Shown: one piece after another, positions 20,172-29,637 of the stretch
How the letters are laid out: every line of letters begins with the position of its first letter
How positions within the stretch are numbered: the first letter of the stretch is position 1
Origin: Phyllosticta citribraziliensis
Taxonomy: Eukaryota
DNA length: 64,000 nucleotides
Assembly: GCF_038025025.1 (NCBI RefSeq)
Contig: NW_027117343.1
Coordinates: 744,001-808,000 of the forward strand
Reading direction: 5' to 3'
Program-made: the position numbers and the translations under genes
The notes under the pieces: generated by a model
Databases searched by the model: none
What the model was told of the DNA's origin: nothing
What the model saw: only the letters and a program-made list of their open reading frames with translations

Positions 20172-23100
20172 TTACCGCTTTCGCTTTTGCTGCTTCTTGC
20201 CCCCGTCGTCGCTGTCGTGTCCGTCCCGGTCCTTCTGCTTCGCCTTCTTCTCCAGCTCGTCCCAGTCTTCACCCTCGCTAACCTCGCTTGCATCCTCCTC
20301 GGACCCGCTGGGCTCGTCTGATGCGTACTCGTCAAAGTCGCTCTCCTCCTCACTCTCCGACTCCGACTCGGCCAGCTCCGAATCGCTAATCTCAAAGTTC
20401 GACTCTTGCTCCTCGCTGTTTTCCTCATCTCCAGAGTCAGAGTCGGCAGCAATGAAGTTCCAACCACCATCGACAAAGAACTGGTGAGGGTCCGCCTGCA
20501 CCGTCTTCATGATGGTCGCCCAGTTGAGGTTGACGGTACCCTCCGAGAATGGAATCTCGACGCTGTCGAGCCAGTCCTTCACTGCGTCGAGCGACTCGAC
20601 GGGAATCGTATTAATGTGCACGGGAACCCTGGTGAAGTCTTTGAAGACGACCACCATATCAAAGTTCTTGAGACCGTACGACACACGTTCGAGATGCACA
20701 ATTTCAATCTCGCTGAGCGTGAGGACGAGGAACGGCGGCTCCGTGAGTTGCACGAGACAATCCGTCGTAGGCTGGATCCAAACGCTTGACCGAGACGGCA
20801 CGCCGTTGAATCCAAGATCGCGGAAAGGAATGTCGACGCCGACATTTTCATTGCGTCCAGCGTCGGCAATCTTGTCGGCGAATGCCTTGAACTCCTTGTC
20901 GAGCTGCGCACGGCGCCGCCGCTCTTCTTGCTCGGCCTCGAATTCTTCCTCGTCGCCAAACCGGTGCTTGCGCTTGCGGTTGCCCGTCTCGTCAAACTGC
21001 ATTTCCGTAGCCTCTCTGTAGAACTGGACGTCCTTGGCCTTTCGCTTGCCAATCATGATGGGGTTCTTGAGATGCACGTGGATGATGACTATCAGCTCGT
21101 GCTGGCAAGGCTGGAAGAACAAGTGCTTGATGTTGCTGAAGAGGATGTCAATCTTTTGGCCGGTGCCGTGGTTGTAGCGGAGACCATTCTGGTGGATTTC
21201 GACGGTGCCAGGCACACGTTTTCCATCCATGGCGGGACGGACGAAAATCATGTCCAACAGTGCCGGCTTGCGATCTGCATTTCATTAGCTTGACCATCCG
21301 AAATGTTCAGCATCCACTCACTCTTGACCGTAATGAGCTTGTCCTGCTCAATCACGTCCTCCATTTGCTTCTTCTCTTGCTCGCGGCGCACAGACTCCTT
21401 CTTCAACTCGGTAATCTGCTTGGCAATGTGCTCCATGCGATCAATATCACGCGACCTGAATGTCAAGCTCCTGACAAAATGGGCCGTCGGATCCTCAAAC
21501 GGCTGGTCGTCCTTGCGGCCGACACCCTGACCTGGGGACAGAAAGTTGATACGCAGCGAGGTGTATTCGCCTTCGGGGCTGTTGCTCGCGTTTTTGATCG
21601 TGTTGATGTGGAAGGGCACAGGACGGCCCATAATGGGCAGGACCACCGTCAAGTTCTTGTCATCCACGACGACCATGAGGTCCTTGACCTTGGTGGGAAA
21701 CTGGTTGTCGCGCTTGTACGACTCGAACCGCTTGAACTTCTTCTCGGTCGCGCCATTCAGATTTCCAATTTCAGCGCCATATCTTTCCAGACCCTCACGA
21801 CGCTTCTTTTCGTGCAGCTCCTTCTGGTGCTCACGTCGTGCTTCTTCCTTCTCGGCATGTTGGTTGGTCTGGCGCTCATGACGAAGCCGGGTCTTGGTAA
21901 TGTTTGCCGGGGCGACTGCACCAACGCGGGCATCCTTCTTGGCCTTGGGCTTGGATGCCTTTTCCTCTTCTTCGTCTTTAAAGAAGAATGAACAAGACTC
22001 CAGGTCAGAGGTGGAATCCCGCGTGAAGATGATGGATTCCTGCCCAGTCACACGCACAGTGTCGGTGATGATCAAGGAGTAAGTGCTGCTCTTCTTATCT
22101 TGTGGGTTGGGGTTGACCAAGTCACTGAAGCTGGTCGTGACTTGCAATGTCATGCCATCCTTGAGCTTACGGCTGTTTTTGCCGCTGAGAATTAGTTGGG
22201 TGTCCTTGAGCTCGATGCCGATGCCGTAGCCGAGATTCTTTGGGAAATGCTTCTCCAAATCTGGCTTTTTTGACTTGAGCAAACCCAGCGCCTTGTTGTA
22301 GACGTCCTTGGCGACAGCGCCGTCCTTGATATTTGCAACAACTTCCTGGTGAATCTGGCGGAGGAGCTTGTAGTTTGCTTCCTGGGACTTGTTGGGGTCG
22401 ACCATGTAGGTCCGCGCAATCATGGACGAGTAGCTTTGATACCGAAGCCCAAGTGCTGCGACAATGATTCCCGCGTGCAAGTTGTTCTTGTCCGAATCTC
22501 TTGTGAACTTGAGGTCGTAGTTTCCGCCACTCTGCACCACGGGTGGAAAGCTCCAATCCAAGTTCATGGGGTCAAAGTTGTTGGAGACCTTGAGCTTATT
22601 GAAAAACTTGTTGTCGTCCAGCTTTGTCGCAACCTTGTCCGCCAGAGCTTGATGTGTGATCTTCTTCTCGGCGTCGAGGATTTCGGACATTTCGTCAACA
22701 AAGTAGTTGGCAATGCCGCTCGATGCTTTGGAAGCGTCTCGAATGGCCCTCTGTTGTAAGCGTCAGCGGCCGCCGTCTCATCCCAACGGGTCACCTACCA
22801 GTTCCTTCTCGTCCTTAACCGACAGCGCCGAAGTAGACAGCGCCGAGGCGCAGTCGACCTCTTCAAGGTCTTTGGCAACTTCCTCGTATGACTTTTTCCA
22901 CTCTTCCACAAATGGACCGGCGGACTGATCCTTAAGCAGCACGCCGACTTTCTTGCCACCATTCTTTATGACATCGAGACACTGCTGGAACTGTTTGGCA
23001 TTCTCGTCGGCATCCTTGCCTCGAATGTGAAGCTCCACGGGCACCTTGCCACCCTTGAGCGGCTCCAGGTAGGCAGCTACATGCCATCAGCCTAAATGTA

Positions 23101-23890: not shown

Positions 23891-25257
23891 ATGACCTCGG
23901 TTTCCGATGGCCAAATCCCGGACTCTAGCCCGCAGGATCTCGACATCCAAGATGGGAAGAAGAAGAAGCAGCCAAAGAACAACGCCGCAACGGGCGCCTC
24001 TGCTGCCGGTATGCGCGCCGTAGCTGTGCAGTTCATGACCTTTTATTTTCGAGCCCCCATCAAGGCCTTCTTCCGCTCGCGGGTAGAGTACGTCGACAGC
24101 GCTGTCAAATCATAAAAGACCATTCACTAACTTTTGATAGCTACATGGTAAGGCCTTGAGAACGACCCCCAGCACCCCTTCTTACCGCTGCAGGCCTACG
24201 CGCGAGCCATAAACCCCGCCATACAATCAAACTTACCGTGGTCGTGGCGCTCAACCTCACCGGCAATCCTCGCATATGCTGTAAAGGAGCACGGATGGGG
24301 TTTCATACCAAACCAGGTGCTGCCGCCGATGCTGGCCAATGTCAGGTAATCCTATACTCGCGCTGAACAGAGCAGAAACTAAGCCACAGCAGCGTCGGCG
24401 CCGTACTCTATACAGCCTATCTTCAGTGTCTCGGCCATCTCCACGAACCCTCTTCCCACGCCGCCAAACGTGTATATCCCCCGGCACCACCCGCACACAC
24501 CTTTGCTGCAGGCCTTTGCGCAGGCACCATCCAGTCACTTGTTGCTGCTCCTCTTGACGCGTTGCAAGTACGCTTCCAGACATCAGACATGCTCGAAGGC
24601 CGCTACAAGACCATGTGGCAGTATGCGGGACACAAACTGCGGGAAATTGGGCTCCGTGGTGTTTTTGCCGGCTGGTCTCTTTCCCTCGTAAAGGACAGTC
24701 TAGGCAATGGCGTCTTCTTCGCCACATTCGAGTACATCAAGTCGCAGTCCTACTACAACTTTGTCAGACGCTACTACGGAGACTACGACTCGGTCTTTGA
24801 CTTTGGTCCATGGGCCAAGACGGTTCACTGGATGGACGGCGAGCGCCCAGTCATCAAACCTCACTACATGATGGAGCCAGCGTTCATTCTGACCGCAGGC
24901 ATCGCGGCGTCCATCGCTCAACAAGCCATCCAACACCCCCTGACAGAGATCCAAAATGTGCACTACAGGCGTCTCGAGAGCCTCGACTATGCCGCCCAGC
25001 AAGAGCATCGCAAGCGCTCGATCTGGCGCATGTATTACCATGCCTACGAAAAGACGTTTGAGCAATGTCGGATGCAGGCCAAGCGCACGGGCGGCTGGCG
25101 TCGCTACCTGTACCGCGACTTTCTCTCGAGCACCATTCGCCAGGTGCCGAGCACTTCCGCGGGTCTGATTGTTTTTGAAGTAGTCAGACGAAAGTACGGG
25201 TTGGTCAGCGACCCGGCGCGGATTGAAAAGGATGGTTACGATATTTTGCTCGACTGA
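23891..25257 (+). CDS. Mitochondrial carrier-like protein; 4 exons including a 7-nt micro-exon (24141-24147)
   Basis: Carrier signature-like PLDALQVRF, GVFAGWSLSLVKDSLGNGVFFATFEYIK, IRQVPSTSAGLIVFE. Introns 24088-24140, 24148-24193 and ~24346-24392 restore the frame. Confidence 0.8.
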
Positions 25258-25920
25258 TGCATTTGGTAGAGTTGAGATTTGGCGCCTGCATGTAAGAGCA
25301 TGAGGGTGAGCGTTTGCATCGCTTGTTTGTCACCATTGATTTGTCTGCATTGGGCGGCGTTTGGACGCGTGGTTTAGAGATATTTCGACGTCATAGAGGG
25401 ATTGTTTGGAGGCCGCACTCGCGGCTCGTAGACATAAACGTCTGATGCAGTTTACATGGTTAGATGTCTCTTCTCCATTCTTTCACTCCATTTTATCGGC
25501 AGAGAATCGAAGCTTGGATGGCACAGTGATTGTCAGGGAACATTTTTCCTGTTTCTTCATCTATATTCTGAGCAGTGAGGATGCGGCTTCCAAGTCGTTC
25601 TCGAGTCAGCTTGATCTGCCGTCTCCGCTCCCATATATCACGCTATTCCCGATTCGCATTACCTCTCCCAACTCCAAAGCTCTCTCGTCGTTCTGCCGTA
25701 TATGGGCCCTCGGATTTCTCTTCCCGGTCCTCTTGATTTCTGGTCACACGACGGCGACGGGCAAAGAGCAAGCTCCGGCGAAGGCGGAGCCAAAAGTCGT
25801 GGCACATGCAGTCGAAGTGGGCGAACCGGGCTCACACGTCTGTGTATCTGTTGACGGCGCGCGTCTTTCGCCTTCTCTCAAATCCCCTCGTCCCATCGAC
25901 CGCTTCCACATCAGGGACGT

Positions 25921-26280
25921 TCAAGCTCGCACAGACAACCGCCGCCACTTCTCAGCCAGCCTAGTCAATACCCACACCAGCGCCACCTCTCCCGCAACCG
26001 TTGGCGCAATCGCAACAATCATTGGGAAAAGGCCAACCACGGCGACCGGCATGAGGCAGACGCAAAAGAAGGCGGCGGTTTGGCGCGCCGAGAGAGCGTT
26101 GGTTGGGCTGCTGATTGCGGCGAGTATAATGAAGATGGGGATGAGCGCTGTGCTGAGGACGATGTACGAAGAGTAGGGGACGGGCCGGAGCATTGCGCTG
26201 GGCGGTGGTGTGTGCGAAGGTTGGATTGGCCACGGACACATGTGGGCGGAGGAGAGCGTGTCGGACATGAGCGCGGTCAT
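25921..26280 (-). CDS. Possible small membrane protein (119 aa, 2-3 hydrophobic segments)
   Basis: ATG-initiated ORF with hydrophobic stretches (YIVLSTALIPIFIILAAIS; FFCVCLMPVAVVGLFPMIVAIA; VALVWVL) and a basic tail; no homology recognised. Confidence 0.25.
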   Translation of the reverse strand: MTALMSDTLSSAHMCPWPIQPSHTPPPSAMLRPVPYSSYIVLSTALIPIFIILAAISSPTNALSARQTAAFFCVCLMPVAVVGLFPMIVAIAPTVAGEVALVWVLTRLAEKWRRLSVRA

Positions 26281-26718
26281 AGAGGGCTACGCGTTGTTGG
26301 TGGAGTATCGGCGCGCTTAAGATGACTGCAATGGTTGCTGAGCTATGAAGCCATTGAAATGCCGTGGTGGTTGAAATGGTGCGTGGTAAGAGATGTGACG
26401 TTGTTGGGCGTGTTTTCTGGACTTTGTAAGTGTTGTGGAGATCATTGGGAAGTTGGCGGCGGTGGTACTGTTTAAGAGCTGTGAGGTGATGGGTGGTTGC
26501 CGAAGAGGCAAGGTCCGGTGTTCGCGAAAGGAGTGGTGGAAAGCAGGACGGCGAGGTGGAGCTTTCGATGGACCATTCAGGAAAGACGATGATGCAGAAA
26601 AGCAAAAGGGTACAAAGAGCAGACCGTCCGCCGCAAGTCAAGAAGCAAAAAGAAACAAACCTCAAAAGACATCATCACCGCGACGCCACCACCACCAGAG
26701 AGTGCGCAGCAAAAGAGC

Positions 26719-27036
26719 AAAACTCCACCCCGGCGCGTAGGCCAGGGCTTACAAACCTTTCTCTTTCGAGGAGGTTATATAGTACAGCGTTTTTACATGA
26801 ACAGTATTACATTCCAAGCAGGAGGGCGGCGCGTACCAGACTCGAACCGGCGGCACCCTCGCAACGACGCGCCATCCATCTCCATCTCAGAAGTTATAGT
26901 ACAACAGATCCGAAATGATGGGCGGCACGTACCAGACTCGAACTGGCGGCACCCTCGCAACGACGCCCGCCCATTCATTTCGGATCCTATGTCCCCTCCA
27001 ACTGCACCACCGAAGCGGTGCAGCTGAGGGGACGAT
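26719..27036 (-). ncRNA. Candidate structured ncRNA of unrecognised family with two tandem tRNA-like (T-arm) domains
   Basis: Five consecutive hairpins or domains fold by eye, with G-U wobbles only on the minus strand. It contains UUCG and GAAA tetraloops and two 39-nt cores differing by one base. TATATAA lies 30 nt upstream and the first T4 run follows the last hairpin. Confidence 0.65.
26832..26966. repeat. Direct repeat, 2 x 39 nt (26832-26870 and 26928-26966), one mismatch, offset 96 nt
   Basis: cgtaccagactcgaac[c/t]ggcggcaccctcgcaacgacgc is present twice. Confidence 0.95.
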
Positions 27037-27059
27037 GCTAATGTTGTCACTTTCAAGGC

Positions 27060-27066
27060 TTATATA
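27060..27066 (-). promoter_or_regulatory. TATA box (TATATAA) upstream of the candidate ncRNA
   Basis: Minus strand reads CAATATATAAGCC; the first T is 30 nt upstream of the A at 27036 that precedes the 5' hairpin. Confidence 0.55.
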
Positions 27067-28096
27067 TTGAATAGGCGTAGTCACCTCCGCCTCCTGCAGT
27101 CACATCCTCAATTCTTCTCTCAACCTTCATGTCGTCCACCTGAAGCTTTGTTTGCTGCTTCATGACCTCGAAACATCCTCCATTGACAAGCCCGCAAAGC
27201 CTCTGCCTTAAAACCCCTTCGTGTTGAGACAGGATCGCTCCTCAGGTCAAAATATCAGAATGAGTAAGAAGTGGCACAGCCAAAATACCGCGTCGACCGA
27301 GACAGTGACCCGCCTTCCAAAGCCACAGACACCAGAGACAGTCTCATATGAGTCAGAGTTAGCACGTTTGACGACCGTGTCGAACAGATCGACAGTGCCT
27401 CCACAAACAGATGTCAGGGCCCTCGGCCTGTACTGCAGCAGGTGTCAAGAACATGACAGCTCCCAGGAAACAGGCGCGACGCCGAACGACAGCTCCCTGA
27501 CTGAACAAACACTTCCAAGACTTGTCGCTCGGCTGCGGCGGTAAGAGACTTCTTCATGGGCATGGCTGTAGTGATGAGGGACAGCTCTCCCAAGCCAGGA
27601 TGTGGCGCGTCTCATTGCACCTCCCACAATGCTTCTGCGCTTGACGGCATGACGAATAGATACTGGGAAATCGTGTTTGTATTGTTGCTATTTCGTCGAC
27701 ACCATACTGTAAGTTGCTCTCTCTACTTTGCATCGCTCGCAGCGAGTAAACAAATGGATAGCCAAGTGACCGCCGACCTGCGTCAGCCCTTGGCACTTTG
27801 GGTCGTTCGGGCTGCGTTGTCTTCCTGAAGGTCTTGTCGCCTGCTCTTTGCAGCAGTGACCTGCGACAGACTGCTTCCAGAAAGGGAGATATTGCAGTCA
27901 ACTGTGCTCACGAGCGCTCTGGCAGATTTTCAATCCATTGCCTAGTTGTCTTTGGCGCACAAAAGGTCGGCGATTCGTCTCCAAGGCCCTCCTCCCTCTG
28001 GCGCATAATCGACATCTTGTCTGAGTCCTTCCTCGACCGAAAATGGTTGCTCTCTCGAAGGTCGCAAATAATCTTGAAATCTTGAAGGACGCCTCT

Positions 28097-29637
28097 TCAT
28101 CTGCTCGGGGGGATCCAACCAATCTGCTCAATCGGAGACTGCACCCACACCCTGAACTCCCTCTCCAAAGACTCGTAGATGCCCGACATGAGGTGGAAGA
28201 CCCAGCCCTTGACCCACCATCTCGCCTCGAGCTCGTTCAGCAAAACGCAGAAATTTGCAAAGATGACGAGGGCGACAGGTTTTCTCTGCTGCACGCGGTC
28301 CATGAACGCTTCCGACAGACGGAAGAGCCAGACAAAGACGCCGTGCATTGGAGTCTGGCCCTCCGGGCGCTCGATGTCGAATACCAAGCTATAGCTGACC
28401 CACAGCGATGCAGCAGTCCGCTGATAAAGCTCGCAGTCGGGATCCTTTTTGACCTCGATTTCGCGCATGAGTAGTGATAGTTCCTTGAGGTGCTTGGTGT
28501 CGTCCGGTATGCTGTCCCGCTCTTCAACTTCCGAGACTCTGCGGTTGCCGGGGCATACGACAGGTGCGAGGACGCCGTGCATGAGGTCCAGATTGGCCGT
28601 GTCGACTATCAGTCTAATGGTGTGGAACAGCACCCGGTACTCGCACATGCCTTTTTCGCCGAAGATCAGATAATCACCGCGTCTGGGGCCGCGGGCCAGC
28701 GCTATGAAGCTGGCAATGACCGCGAACACGTAGAGCGCATGTCCGTTCTCGCTGTCGACATGGGCAAGGGCCGACGTGGCAGCCCGGATCGCAATGTCCC
28801 AGTGATAATCCATTTGGCGTTGAAAGTACTCCCGGCGCTCATGGTCGAATTTGGAGAGATGGATGGCTGACATTGCCATGAGACCGTGGAGCACAAATGG
28901 ATAGGAGAATCCCATTGCGGGTGCGTTGACGCGCCAAAAGTTTTGCAGTCCCGGAAGCGTGTAGAGGGTGTAGGAGGTCGAGGTGCAGTAGTTGTGAAAA
29001 AGCTCTAGCTGGGCCACATTCAATCCTGAAGATCCTTGGGCCGAGCTCAGAGTTGTTGAAGAGTCCAATTGTGGGCTTGGAGTGCTTCCAGGCGCTGTTG
29101 GAGTGTTGCCATCGGCCAAGGAAGGTTCGGTAGGCGTCAAATGATCACTTGGACTGGTGGAATTCGACGGCCCCATCGAGGCTCGAGAAGCCTGCGAGGC
29201 CGAGTGGACGAAGTCGCAGTGAATTGCATGTCGTACACAATTTGTACAACTTGGTCTTCTTTCATCGCACTGGGCCGATGATTTAGAAAAATGAAAGACA
29301 ACGCAGAGCAGATGTGCTCTTTGAAAATCAAGACTATTTCGGGACAAAGAATCAGGGAGGAGTATCAAACTTGGGCACGTTCTCAGGGATCCAGGCAGCA
29401 GCATAAAATGCGAAGGGCTTCAATGTTTACGCCCTGGAGGAGGCAACGACAAAGCAGATTTCCAAACAAGGCTGACGAAACGACGCTCGTGGACGAGCAA
29501 AAGCAAACACTCACCTTGATTCTTCTTCGCTTGCAGTTGGCACAGCCAAGGCGCGATTTGCGATGAGATCGACGCGACGAGACTTTCTTCTCAGCGTCGC
29601 TGGATGGCACCATGCTCCCGGGGTGAGATGTTGTCAT
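28097..29637 (-). CDS. Zn(II)2Cys6 transcription factor, Upc2/Ecm22-like; intron within the zinc cluster
   Basis: RRSHRKSRLGCANCKRRRIK|CDERRPSCTNCVRHAIHCDF; C-terminal LELFHNYCTST..PFVLHGLMAMSAIHL..PVALVIFANFCVLL. Confidence 0.9.

What the first reader, a model, noticed from the sequence alone, without database searches (positions are those of the whole stretch)
26719..27066. Candidate novel ~320-nt, five-domain structured RNA gene on the minus strand
Seen, minus strand 5'->3': TATATAA (27066-27060); putative +1 A at 27036. Hairpin A is GUCCCCUC-AGCUGCACCGC-UUCG-GUGGUGCAGUU-G-GAGGGGAC (27033-26991, ~19 bp, cUUCGg loop). Domain B (26986-26907) is closed by GAUCCGAAAUGA..UGGGCGG / CCGCCCA.UCAUUUCGGAUC. 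Domain C (26892-26812) is closed by UUCUGAG..GGAG..GG..UGGCGCGU / ACGCGCCG.CC.CUCC..CUUGGAA. Hairpin D carries a GAAA tetraloop (~26781-26750). Hairpin E is GCCCUGGC-CUACGC-GCCGGGGU (26748-26727). The first T4 follows at 26722-26719, with more T-runs at 26714-26711 and 26651-26647. Many pairs are G-U on the minus strand but A-C mismatches on the plus strand, favouring an RNA over DNA palindromes. Established: UUCG and GNRA are the most common stable tetraloops, and TATA at -30 plus an internal GTTCGA B-box and oligo-T end resembles a Pol III unit. I cannot see the hallmark motifs of tRNA, 5S, U1/U2/U4/U5/U6, U3, SRP, RNase P or RNase MRP. Inference: an independently transcribed ncRNA of undescribed family.
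Basis: partly seen in the sequence, partly recalled or inferred. Interest (0 to 1): 0.92.

Follow-up and report, generated by a model that had tools for sequence, protein, structure and literature searches.

The report
Conserved tRNA-derived structured RNA locus
A roughly 320-base stretch between two fungal genes folds into unusually stable hairpins, two of them built around a duplicated fragment of a transfer-RNA gene. It is far better conserved than its surroundings and appears to be transcribed, so it is probably a new non-coding RNA whose function is still unknown.

Summary
The 318-nt segment folds better than all 100 shuffles (z -5.08). It also has the lowest composition-adjusted energy of 402 window segments, though by a small margin. 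Hairpins A and B carry the signal. C alone is no better than chance, and D and E are modest.

Each core is a tRNA acceptor stem plus T-arm with no D or anticodon arm, capping a long stem. A tRNA-type A box lies in hairpin A and a B box in each core. TATA lies upstream and T-runs downstream.

No Rfam family, tRNA, repeat copy, target-site duplication or terminal inverted repeat was found.

In a related organism the element differs at 4 of 317 bases, against 51 of 482 in the flanks (p 4e-8). Two RNA-like runs from two organisms show a sharp rise in depth starting at 27009-27015.

Best reading: a tRNA-gene-derived structured ncRNA transcribed on its own, probably by Pol III. Its layout resembles the Neurospora milR-4 precursor. 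The polymerase, the RNA ends, the copy number, covariation and the function all remain untested.

The parts
27060..27066 (-). TATATAA box, 30 nt upstream of the proposed start at 27036
   Evidence: Read directly from the sequence. In the RNA-like runs depth is low upstream and high downstream of 27009-27059.
26991..27033 (-). Hairpin A: 19 pairs, cUUCGg loop, one bulged G
   Evidence: -35.8 kcal/mol, z -8.19, 0 of 200 shuffles as good. Contigs of all four laid runs end inside it, at 27009-27023.
26998..27009 (-). tRNA-type A-box match (TGGTGCAGTTGG) in the 3' arm of hairpin A
   Evidence: the pattern TRGYNNART(N)GG occurs 6 times in both strands of the 64-kb window. This match lies 53 nt upstream of the first B box on the same strand. 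The consensus is recalled, not taken from a tool.
26907..26986 (-). Domain B: a long stem (12 perfect pairs, then 11 more with two bulges) capped by tRNA-like core 1
   Evidence: 12-nt arms, 100% complementary.: -41.0 kcal/mol, z -4.27; the fold with a T-arm costs -40.9 against the MFE of -41.0.
26920..26966 (-). Copy 1 of the 47-nt repeat: acceptor-stem strands plus T-arm (GCCAG / UUCGAGU / CUGGU); B box at 26944-26934
   Evidence: 2 copies against 0 expected; its 22-mer occurs in the metagenome collection only once, as the T-arm of a tRNA-Asp. B-box match.
26893..26906 (-). Linker motif UGUUGUACUAUAAC, repeated after unit C
   Evidence: Alignment A1. Contains one of the 5 UGUA sites.
26812..26892 (-). 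Domain C: a diverged duplicate of B with an irregular outer stem, capped by tRNA-like core 2
   Evidence: unit 1 against unit 2 alignment z 15.9.: -32.0 kcal/mol but z only -0.63. T-arm fold -31.1 against -32.0.
26824..26870 (-). Copy 2 of the 47-nt repeat: acceptor 5' strand GGCGCGU at 26873-26867, 12-nt connector, T-arm GCCGG / UUCGAGU / CUGGU, acceptor 3' strand ACGCGCC at 26834-26828; B box at 26848-26838
   Evidence: Both differences between the two copies fall on paired positions and keep a pair on the minus strand (G-C to G-U, G-U to A-U), read.
26774..26787 (-). Second copy of the linker motif (CUGUACUAUAUAAC)
26750..26781 (-). Hairpin D with a GAAA loop
   Evidence: -7.0 kcal/mol, z -2.30 (4 of 200 shuffles as good). 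Weak.
26727..26748 (-). Hairpin E. Its 3' arm repeats the 9-mer UACGCGCCG of core 2's acceptor 3' strand, 94 nt downstream of it.
   Evidence: -14.5 kcal/mol, z -2.58. The 9-mer repeat was read. Homology of a third unit is not significant.
26711..26722 (-). Two T4 runs (UUUUGCUCUUUU), a candidate Pol III terminator
   Evidence: One contig of run X3 joins a tRNA-like 3' half directly to this same tail at another locus (my inference from the joint and loose ends).
26647..26651 (-). T5 run, a possible back-up terminator
   Evidence: RNA-like contigs still lie beyond it, at 26302-26660.

Best explanation
The segment is a discrete non-coding RNA locus on the minus strand, about 310-330 nt long, that evolved from a tRNA gene.

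Shown:
- A very stable 5' hairpin (A) is followed by two tandem, roughly 96-nt units (B, C).
- In each unit a long stem is capped by a tRNA minihelix: a 7-bp acceptor stem stacked on a T-arm with a UUCGAGU T-loop. A 12-nt G-rich connector stands in place of the D and anticodon arms.
- Two small hairpins and T-runs close the element.
- It is under strong purifying selection relative to its flanks.
- RNA-like runs cover it, with a sharp boundary at its 5' side.

Inferred:
- Transcription starts about 30 nt downstream of the TATA box.
- It is most likely carried out by RNA polymerase III, using the tRNA-type A box in hairpin A and the B boxes in the T-arms (TFIIIC sites). It would terminate, leakily, at the T-runs inherited from the ancestral tRNA gene.

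Most speculative: the product acts as a structured RNA whose tRNA-like caps are read by tRNA-handling factors such as RNase P, RNase Z, La and T-loop modifiers. The roughly 20-bp stems beneath the caps could then be released as small-RNA duplexes. This happens in the Neurospora milR-4 precursor, where a tRNA sits between the milRNA and milRNA* arms.
For: Structure: z -5.08 for the element and unstructured flanks; lowest of 402 window segments; A z -8.19 and B z -4.27.

tRNA origin:
- The 47-nt repeat has 2 copies at 96% identity.
- The T-arm fold is isoenergetic with the MFE.
- The 22-mer across the T-arm has one exact match in the metagenome collection, the T-arm of a tRNA-Asp.
- A separate X3 contig joins the same tRNA-like 3' half (26863-26826) directly to the same T-run tail (26730-26710) in unrelated flanks (my inference).

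Promoter-like layout on one strand, in the right order: TATA 27066-27060; A box 27009-26998 (6 such matches in 128 kb); B boxes at 26944 and 26848 (3 in the window); T4, T4, T5.

Conservation: the X5 contig 26707-27023 has 4 of 317 differences, against 51 of 482 in its three flank contigs; Fisher p 3.7e-8. Its depth of 3.6 is like that of the flanks (2-4.5), so it is single-copy there.

Expression: runs X2 and X8 have very uneven depth and so look like RNA.
- X2 has a 158-nt contig, 26858-27015, at depth 71.7, against 13.6 upstream and 3.6-12.6 downstream. It has none over 25705-26209, so the unit is separate from the carrier mRNA, which ends at 25639.
- X8 has depth 308 up to 27009, where a sequencing adapter follows directly. 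Upstream the depth is 3-11.

Strand: orientation of the T-loop and of the A and B boxes; 8 G-U and 0 A-C in the named helices (my reading); both differences between the repeat copies keep pairs on the minus strand only.

Not coding: a 1-nt deletion and 2- and 3-nt insertions in X8. Translations of two open frames, one on each strand, have no real homologues.

Precedent: passages of PMC3547838.
Against: - No read-level, stranded or small-RNA data. That X2 and X8 are RNA is a guess by the tool, and contigs cannot show strand or ends.
- X2 has no contig over 26661-26857 (3' half of C, D, E), so the abundant species there may be only about 160-180 nt, or the assembly broke.
- RNA-like cover continues past all the T-runs: X2 at 26302-26660, and X8 continuously to below 25200. 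That fits a long Pol II transcript at least as well. T4 is a weak Pol III terminator in fungi (recalled).
- An adapter-tagged end at 27059 in X2 shows another RNA abutting the TATA box.
- Domain C is not more stable than shuffles, D and E are marginal, and the plus strand folds with similar z.
- Covariation could not be tested, because no relative's sequence could be retrieved.
- Genome-wide copy number in this organism is unknown.
- High identity of the tRNA-like parts could be helped by gene conversion with a real tRNA gene.
- The long pairing of leader with trailer below the minihelix should hinder RNase P and RNase Z (recalled).
Confidence: 0.55

Rival explanations
1. The element is the structured 5' domain of a longer Pol II non-coding transcript, or the leader of a small ORF. 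The TATA box is an ordinary Pol II promoter. The tRNA-derived hairpins are a conserved 5' module (stability, localisation or protein binding) of an RNA of at least 0.7-1.4 kb. The A and B boxes are relics of the tRNA ancestry.
For: In X8 one contig runs from 27009 through all the T-runs to below 25200. In X2 contigs lie at 26507-26660 and 26302-26530. TATA at -30 suits Pol II as well. X8 carries an in-frame 12-nt insertion at 26256, inside the 119-aa minus-strand ORF 25921-26280.
Against: In X2 depth falls from 71.7 on the element to 12.6 and 3.6 downstream, with no contig at 26661-26857 or 25705-26209, so a single long RNA is not seen in the window's own species. A contig across convergent genes does not show one transcript. 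The 119-aa ORF has no Pfam family and no homologue among proteins of 65-209 residues. The downstream 419 nt are unstructured (z -1.14). An A box, two B boxes and T-runs in the correct order on one strand would be an odd coincidence.
Confidence: 0.25
2. The element works at the DNA level. The two B boxes and the A box form a conserved TFIIIC-binding site, like the extra-TFIIIC sites of yeasts. It would act as a boundary between the carrier gene and the Zn2Cys6 gene. The RNA and its folds would be by-products.
For: Two B-box matches 96 nt apart and an A box lie in an intergenic position between two genes. Conservation is strong. The concept of extra-TFIIIC sites is recalled. My search for it in filamentous fungi found nothing.
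Against: Conservation covers all 317 nt, not only the 11-nt boxes. The G-U bias in the helices and the pair-keeping differences between the copies point to selection on an RNA. Depth over the element is high in the RNA-like runs.
Confidence: 0.08
3. The element is a non-functional relic: a partly deleted, tandemly duplicated tRNA pseudogene, or a low-copy SINE- or MITE-like insertion. Its stems come from the duplication history and it is transcribed only incidentally.
For: The cores are truncated tRNA fragments. Unit C has a degraded stem (z -0.63). A related fragment exists at another locus in X3, and a 95-nt length variant is suggested. Low-copy tRNA-related SINEs with degenerate boxes are described in Aspergillus fumigatus (PMC5063351, abstract and passages).
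Against: 4 of 317 differences against 51 of 482 in the flanks is incompatible with neutral decay. There is no TSD, no TIR and no A-rich or LINE-like tail. There is a single copy in the window, and depth in X5 is like the flanks.
Confidence: 0.1

Closest known systems
Neurospora crassa pri-milR-4, a Pol III-transcribed, tRNA-linked microRNA-like RNA precursor (PMC3547838; abstract and passages read)
   Same: It lies in an intergenic position in a filamentous fungus and is reported as Pol III-transcribed. The paper's figure of milR-1 to milR-4 marks TATA-like elements, putative A and B boxes and poly-T. Two tRNA units stand in tandem. The small-RNA arm lies before a tRNA and its partner arm after it, so the tRNA sits at the apex of a stem, as in domains B and C here.
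   Different: milR-4 is flanked by genuine tRNA-Ala genes. Here the caps are truncated minihelices that neither ARAGORN nor the Rfam tRNA model recognises. No small RNAs, Dicer dependence or RNase Z dependence could be examined. No sequence comparison was possible.
Canonical tRNA genes and tRNA pseudogenes
   Same: A 7-bp acceptor stem and a 5-bp T-stem with a UUCGAGU loop. The B box is inside the T-arm. An A-box-like motif lies upstream and a T-run lies downstream. The T-arm 22-mer is identical to that of a metagenomic tRNA-Asp.
   Different: There is no D arm, anticodon arm or anticodon, only a 12-nt connector. The acceptor helix continues for some 15 more pairs into leader and trailer. The A box sits 53 nt away, in a separate hairpin.
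tRNA-derived Pol III non-coding RNAs and tRNA-like processing modules: BC1, MALAT1 mascRNA, murine gammaherpesvirus 68 tRNA-miRNA units, and the RPR1 and SNR52 leader promoters of yeast (all recalled, not checked here)
   Same: tRNA-type promoter boxes or tRNA-shaped modules are reused in RNAs that are not adaptors, either to recruit Pol III or to recruit RNase P and RNase Z.
   Different: None has two truncated minihelices capping long stems behind a 5' cUUCGg hairpin. No homology was tested.
tRNA-related SINEs of Aspergillus fumigatus, AfuSINE2 (PMC5063351; abstract and passages)
   Same: 140-493 bp, low copy number, degenerate A and B boxes, one member with a second B box, and some members transcribed.
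   Different: AfuSINEs are defined by 4-14-bp target-site duplications and dispersed copies. Here no TSD was found and the element is far more conserved than its flanks.

Membership tests
Any Rfam 15 family | A covariance-model match at the family's gathering score | tested here: not met
   0 matches in the 64-kb window. At E<=10 over 25200-27400 the only match is SNORD53_SNORD92, 18.3 bits against a gathering score of 46, E 1.3-1.8, at 26631-26683, outside the element.
Canonical tRNA gene | A cloverleaf with D arm, anticodon arm and anticodon | tested here: not met
   ARAGORN finds 0 genes in the window. No tRNA-model hit at E<=10. Only a 12-nt connector lies between the acceptor 5' strand and the T-arm.
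Canonical tRNA gene | An acceptor stem stacked on a T-arm with a T-loop of the UUCRANY type | tested here: met
   GGCGCGU/ACGCGCC and GCCGG-UUCGAGU-CUGGU were read. The constrained fold lies within 0.1-0.9 kcal/mol of the MFE. The T-arm 22-mer is identical to a tRNA-Asp T-arm.
Pol III type-2 (tRNA-type) transcription unit | Internal A box and B box in order on the transcribed strand, 30-90 nt apart | tested here: met
   A box at 27009-26998, B boxes at 26944 and 26848. The window holds 6 A-box and 3 B-box matches in both strands together. The consensus patterns are recalled.
Pol III type-2 (tRNA-type) transcription unit | Termination at an oligo-T run | tested here: inconclusive
   T4, T4 and T5 are present. 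RNA-like contigs also lie beyond them, and contigs cannot show RNA ends.
Pol III type-2 (tRNA-type) transcription unit | Occupancy by Pol III, TFIIIB and TFIIIC; sensitivity to a Pol III inhibitor | not testable with these tools
   No ChIP or inhibitor data were available.
SINE | Many dispersed copies | tested here: inconclusive
   One copy in the 64-kb window. No whole genome is held. In X5 the depth of the element contig (3.6) equals that of the flank contigs (2-4.5). One partial relative sits at another locus in X3.
SINE | Target-site duplications and an A-rich or LINE-derived 3' tail | tested here: not met
   Only three chance 6-mers are shared between the flanks. The 3' end consists of T-runs.
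MITE | Terminal inverted repeats with a TSD | tested here: not met
   No inverted match of 7 nt or more between the two ends.
Fungal milRNA precursor (milR-4 type) | A stem whose arms flank a tRNA, in a Pol III unit | tested here: inconclusive
   The architecture is matched by B and, less well, by C, compared with passages of PMC3547838. The caps are only tRNA fragments, and Pol III is inferred.
Fungal milRNA precursor (milR-4 type) | Argonaute-bound small RNAs of about 19-25 nt from the arms; dependence on Dicer or RNase Z | not testable with these tools
   No small-RNA run could be examined. The single read-laying run returned contigs only.
Fungal telomerase RNA | A template complementary to TTAGGG repeats; an Sm site | tested here: not met
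   No CCCTAA or TTAGGG and no Sm-like site on either strand in 25000-27700. The motifs are recalled.

The most novel reading that the evidence does not exclude
This is a previously undescribed, clade-conserved family of fungal Pol III RNAs. In it, truncated tRNA minihelices (acceptor stem, T-arm and a G-rich pseudo-D-loop) cap stems of about 20 bp. The caps recruit the tRNA-processing machinery (RNase P, RNase Z, La). That either releases the stems as small regulatory RNA duplexes without a canonical pri-miRNA pathway, or makes the RNA a decoy that titrates tRNA-handling factors.
Probability: 0.25. Interest if true: 0.8.

Novelty: new variant of a known kind. Interest (0 to 1): 0.6.

Why it matters
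Non-coding RNAs of filamentous fungi are poorly catalogued. Few Pol III products beyond tRNA, 5S, U6, SRP and RNase P RNA are known there. A single-copy, strongly conserved, highly structured RNA built from duplicated tRNA fragments would be a clear case of a tRNA gene being reused. It would offer a testable link between tRNA genes and the Pol III-driven microRNA-like RNAs of Neurospora. It could also serve as a compact natural scaffold (TATA, A box, B box, stable hairpins) for expressing small RNAs in fungi. If it works instead as a TFIIIC-bound boundary, it would extend extra-TFIIIC sites to filamentous fungi.

Tried and rejected
- **Whole-genome copy search.** No genome is held for this window, so copy number rests on the window and on contig depth.
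- **Relatives' sequences for covariation.**
  - The one metagenome scan, with the T-arm 22-mer, returned only a prokaryote-type tRNA cluster.
  - Translations of open frames across the element were used as bait. The plus-frame 144 aa gave no hit among proteins of 78-251 residues. The minus-frame 88 aa gave 2 hits in 1.84 billion representatives, both long repeat proteins and spurious.
  - Earlier-findings look-ups by place, sequence and words gave nothing for this genome. They returned one unrelated note on a tRNA-Tyr repeat array in another genome, which I did not use.
- **Sequencing runs.** No RNA holder is listed on record. Only 4 of the 13 listed runs were laid (X2, X8, X3, X5). All are contigs, and 513 substitution rows, 70 indel rows and 17 contig pieces were not shown. 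I therefore could not place X8's or X3's differences within the element. X2's lack of cover at 26661-26857 and 25705-26209 is noted but proves nothing.
- **Telomerase RNA.** No template or Sm site.
- **C/D snoRNA at 26631-26683.** 18.3 bits against 46; rejected.
- **H/ACA, U3, U6, SRP, RNase P and MRP.** Compared by eye from recalled motifs only. Nothing convincing, and no Rfam hit.
- **A third tandem unit (D/E).** Suggested by the linker motif and by the 9-mer UACGCGCCG 94 nt downstream. The alignment is not significant (z 0.96 and -1.12), and TRF finds no such period.
- **Bacterial promoter and terminator scan.** Irrelevant for a eukaryote.
- **Literature.** Six full-text searches found no description of such an element: tRNA-like with SINE in filamentous fungi; tRNA-like with Aspergillus, ncRNA and RNase P; tRNA-like structure with fungi, lncRNA and T-arm; extra TFIIIC with B-box and filamentous fungi or Aspergillus; Pol III with Pezizomycotina and ncRNA; milRNA with Pol III and RNase Z. 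These searches cannot show that it is unpublished.
Full report
**Observation.** These are TATATAA at 27066-27060, hairpin A at 27033-26991 with a cUUCGg loop, domains B (26986-26907) and C (26892-26812), hairpins D and E, and T-runs at 26722-26719, 26714-26711 and 26651-26647.

The 318-nt segment folds to -140.2 kcal/mol, against -113.8 +/- 5.2 for 100 dinucleotide shuffles (z -5.08, none as good). The structured part is discrete. The next 419 nt downstream have z -1.14 and the 364 nt upstream have z +0.76.

As an empirical control I folded 201 non-overlapping 318-nt segments of the window on both strands and regressed energy on G+C and G+U content. None of the 402 has as low a residual as the element, but the margin is small (-29 against -24 kcal/mol).

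The signal sits in A (z -8.19) and B (z -4.27). C alone is no better than chance (z -0.63; 53 of 200 shuffles as good). D and E are marginal (z -2.30 and -2.58).

The plus strand has z -4.50, and the 24 kcal/mol gap between strands equals the gap between their shuffles. It reflects G+U richness.

B and C are tandem duplicates. A 47-nt core recurs at 26920-26966 and 26824-26870 with 96% identity, 96 nt apart. There are 2 matches in the window against 0 expected. The whole units align with z 15.9 (alignment A1), including a linker motif after each unit.

Read as RNA, each core is a tRNA fragment:
- an acceptor 5' strand (GGCGCGU in C);
- a 12-nt G-rich connector;
- a T-arm (GCCGG-UUCGAGU-CUGGU);
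- the acceptor 3' strand (ACGCGCC), then G.

There is no D arm or anticodon arm, so ARAGORN finds nothing and no Rfam model matches. The fold with the T-arm costs no more than the MFE: -40.9 against -41.0 for B, and -31.1 against -32.0 for C. The 22-mer across the T-arm has a single exact match in the metagenome collection, the T-arm of a tRNA-Asp in a tRNA cluster.

The two differences between the copies both lie on paired positions. Both keep a pair on the minus strand only (G-C to G-U, G-U to A-U). In B the acceptor helix continues outward for some 15 more pairs, 12 of them perfect, so the tRNA fragment caps a long stem.

**Promoter-like layout.** A tRNA-type A-box match (TGGTGCAGTTGG, 27009-26998) lies in the 3' arm of hairpin A. 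That pattern occurs 6 times in both strands of the window. The B-box pattern occurs 3 times, two of them in the cores, at 26944 and 26848. The third B-box match and one other A-box match lie in an acidic coding repeat near 20.3 kb, on opposite strands, and are chance.

TATA, A box, B box, B box and T-runs stand in this order on one strand, with 53 nt between the A box and the first B box. This is the layout of a tRNA-type Pol III unit. The consensus patterns and spacing rules are recalled knowledge.

**Not a mobile element, as far as can be seen.**
- There is no other copy in the window.
- The flanks share no direct repeat longer than 6 nt, and the ends share no inverted repeat of 7 nt or more.
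- There is no A-rich tail.
- The whole genome is not held.

**Public runs.** Thirteen runs were listed and I laid four. All are contigs.

- *Conservation.* In X5 (organism C; even depth of 2-4.5, so probably DNA) a 317-nt contig covers 26707-27023 with 4 differences. Its three flank contigs (27447-27578, 27643-27742, 27877-28126) carry 21 of 132, 9 of 100 and 21 of 250 differences. That is 4 of 317 against 51 of 482, Fisher p 3.7e-8. The equal depth argues for a single copy there. One caveat: the run was found through this stretch, and all its flank contigs lie on one side.
- *Expression.* X2 (same species label as the best holder) and X8 (organism E) have depths varying 50-fold along 3 kb, so they look like RNA. 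The tool marks this as a guess.
  - In X2 the carrier mRNA contig ends at 25639 (depth 185). Nothing covers 25705-26209. Contigs then lie at 26302-26530 (3.6), 26507-26660 (12.6) and 26858-27015 (71.7). Upstream, a contig at 27059-27549 (13.6) begins with adapter sequence.
  - In X8 one contig at depth 308 runs from below 25200 to 27009, where adapter follows directly. Upstream the depth is 3-11.
  - Two organisms therefore show a sharp boundary between 27009 and 27059, just downstream of the TATA box. That is as expected for a minus-strand start near 27030 with the usual loss of the first bases.
- *Not coding.* X8 carries a 1-nt deletion at 26920 and 3- and 2-nt insertions in the C-D linker. 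The translations have no real homologues.
- *What does not fit neatly.*
  - X2 lacks any contig over 26661-26857.
  - Cover continues beyond the T-runs in both runs.
  - The adapter-tagged end at 27059 shows another RNA end abutting the TATA box.
  - Contigs cannot give strand or true ends.
- *A related locus.* In X3 a joint (26730 to 26826, shorter side 21 letters) and two loose ends (before 26710 and behind 26863, each at least 255 unlike letters) fit one contig. That contig would hold only 26863-26826 plus 26730-26710 in foreign flanks. This is the tRNA-like 3' half joined directly to the T-run tail, at depth 83, like single-copy contigs of that run. I infer a separate locus, possibly the parental tRNA gene or a pseudogene. 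It would explain why hairpin E's 3' arm repeats the acceptor 9-mer and why the element ends in a tRNA-style trailer. This is inference, because the contig itself was not shown.

**Interpretation.** The most economical reading is a tRNA-gene-derived, independently transcribed, structured ncRNA on the minus strand. Pol III is the more likely polymerase, given the boxes and a terminator inherited from a tRNA gene. A Pol II lncRNA with this element as its 5' domain is a serious rival because of the downstream cover. A purely DNA-level TFIIIC site or a decaying pseudogene or SINE fits the conservation and the RNA-specific pairing less well.

The nearest described architecture is Neurospora pri-milR-4 (PMC3547838, abstract and passages). 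It is Pol III-transcribed and holds two tRNAs, with the milRNA before the second tRNA and the milRNA* after it, so the tRNA sits at the apex of the stem. RNase Z is needed for its maturation. In B here, the roughly 20-bp stem under the minihelix has the size of a small-RNA duplex. Whether small RNAs arise could not be tested. The continuous leader-trailer pairing may in fact hinder RNase P and RNase Z (recalled).

**Novelty and score.** No Rfam family matches, and six full-text searches found no description. Those searches cannot prove absence. The kind is known: tRNA-derived Pol III RNAs and tRNA-linked hairpin precursors. This arrangement, two truncated minihelices capping long stems behind a cUUCGg hairpin, is not, so I rate it a new variant of a known kind. 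Interest is 0.6. The element is real, conserved and probably expressed, but its ends, polymerase, covariation and function are all open.

Noticed in passing
window 26753-26903 (minus strand): Five UGUA tetramers lie in the inter-domain linkers of the element, at 26903, 26811, 26797, 26786 and 26753. About 1.2 are expected, and 23 of 5000 mononucleotide shuffles have 5 or more. UGUA is the core of PUF-protein sites (recalled). The meaning here is unknown.
   Followed up: partly
window 26631-26683 (minus strand): A weak C/D-box snoRNA-like match (SNORD53_SNORD92, 18.3 bits against a gathering score of 46, E 1.3) has a GUGAUGA C box but no clear D box. It lies just downstream of the element, and a T5 run sits inside it. 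Probably chance.
   Followed up: partly
window 27059-27549: The RNA-like run X2 has a contig at depth 13.6 whose end at 27059, right beside the TATA box, carries sequencing-adapter sequence. This means a discrete RNA end. It could be the 3' end of an upstream minus-strand RNA or the 5' end of a divergent plus-strand RNA. A similar adapter-tagged end at 27696 may be the 3' end of the Zn2Cys6 mRNA.
   Followed up: no
window 25921-26280 (minus strand): A 119-aa hydrophobic ORF downstream of the element has no Pfam family and no homologue among proteins of 65-209 residues. Yet the relative in X8 carries an in-frame 12-nt insertion at 26256. Whether it is a gene is unclear.
   Followed up: partly
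window 25601-25772: Relatives differ here by a 154-nt deletion (X8) or by a replacement of 143 letters with 138 others (X3). This is just beyond the point where the carrier mRNA contig of X2 ends, at 25639. It is a hypervariable stretch between convergent units, not a canonical intron.
   Followed up: no
window 20200-20520 (minus strand): An acidic Ser/Glu/Asp-rich coding repeat contains a chance A-box-like match and a chance B-box-like match on opposite strands. It shows that these consensus patterns can arise in coding sequence.
   Followed up: yes
Run X3, contig covering window 26863-26826 plus 26730-26710: A separate locus in a related genome seems to hold only the tRNA-like 3' half joined to the same T-run trailer, with at least 255 unrelated letters on each side. 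It may be the parental tRNA gene, possibly intron-containing, or a pseudogene. This is inferred from the joint and loose ends.
   Followed up: partly
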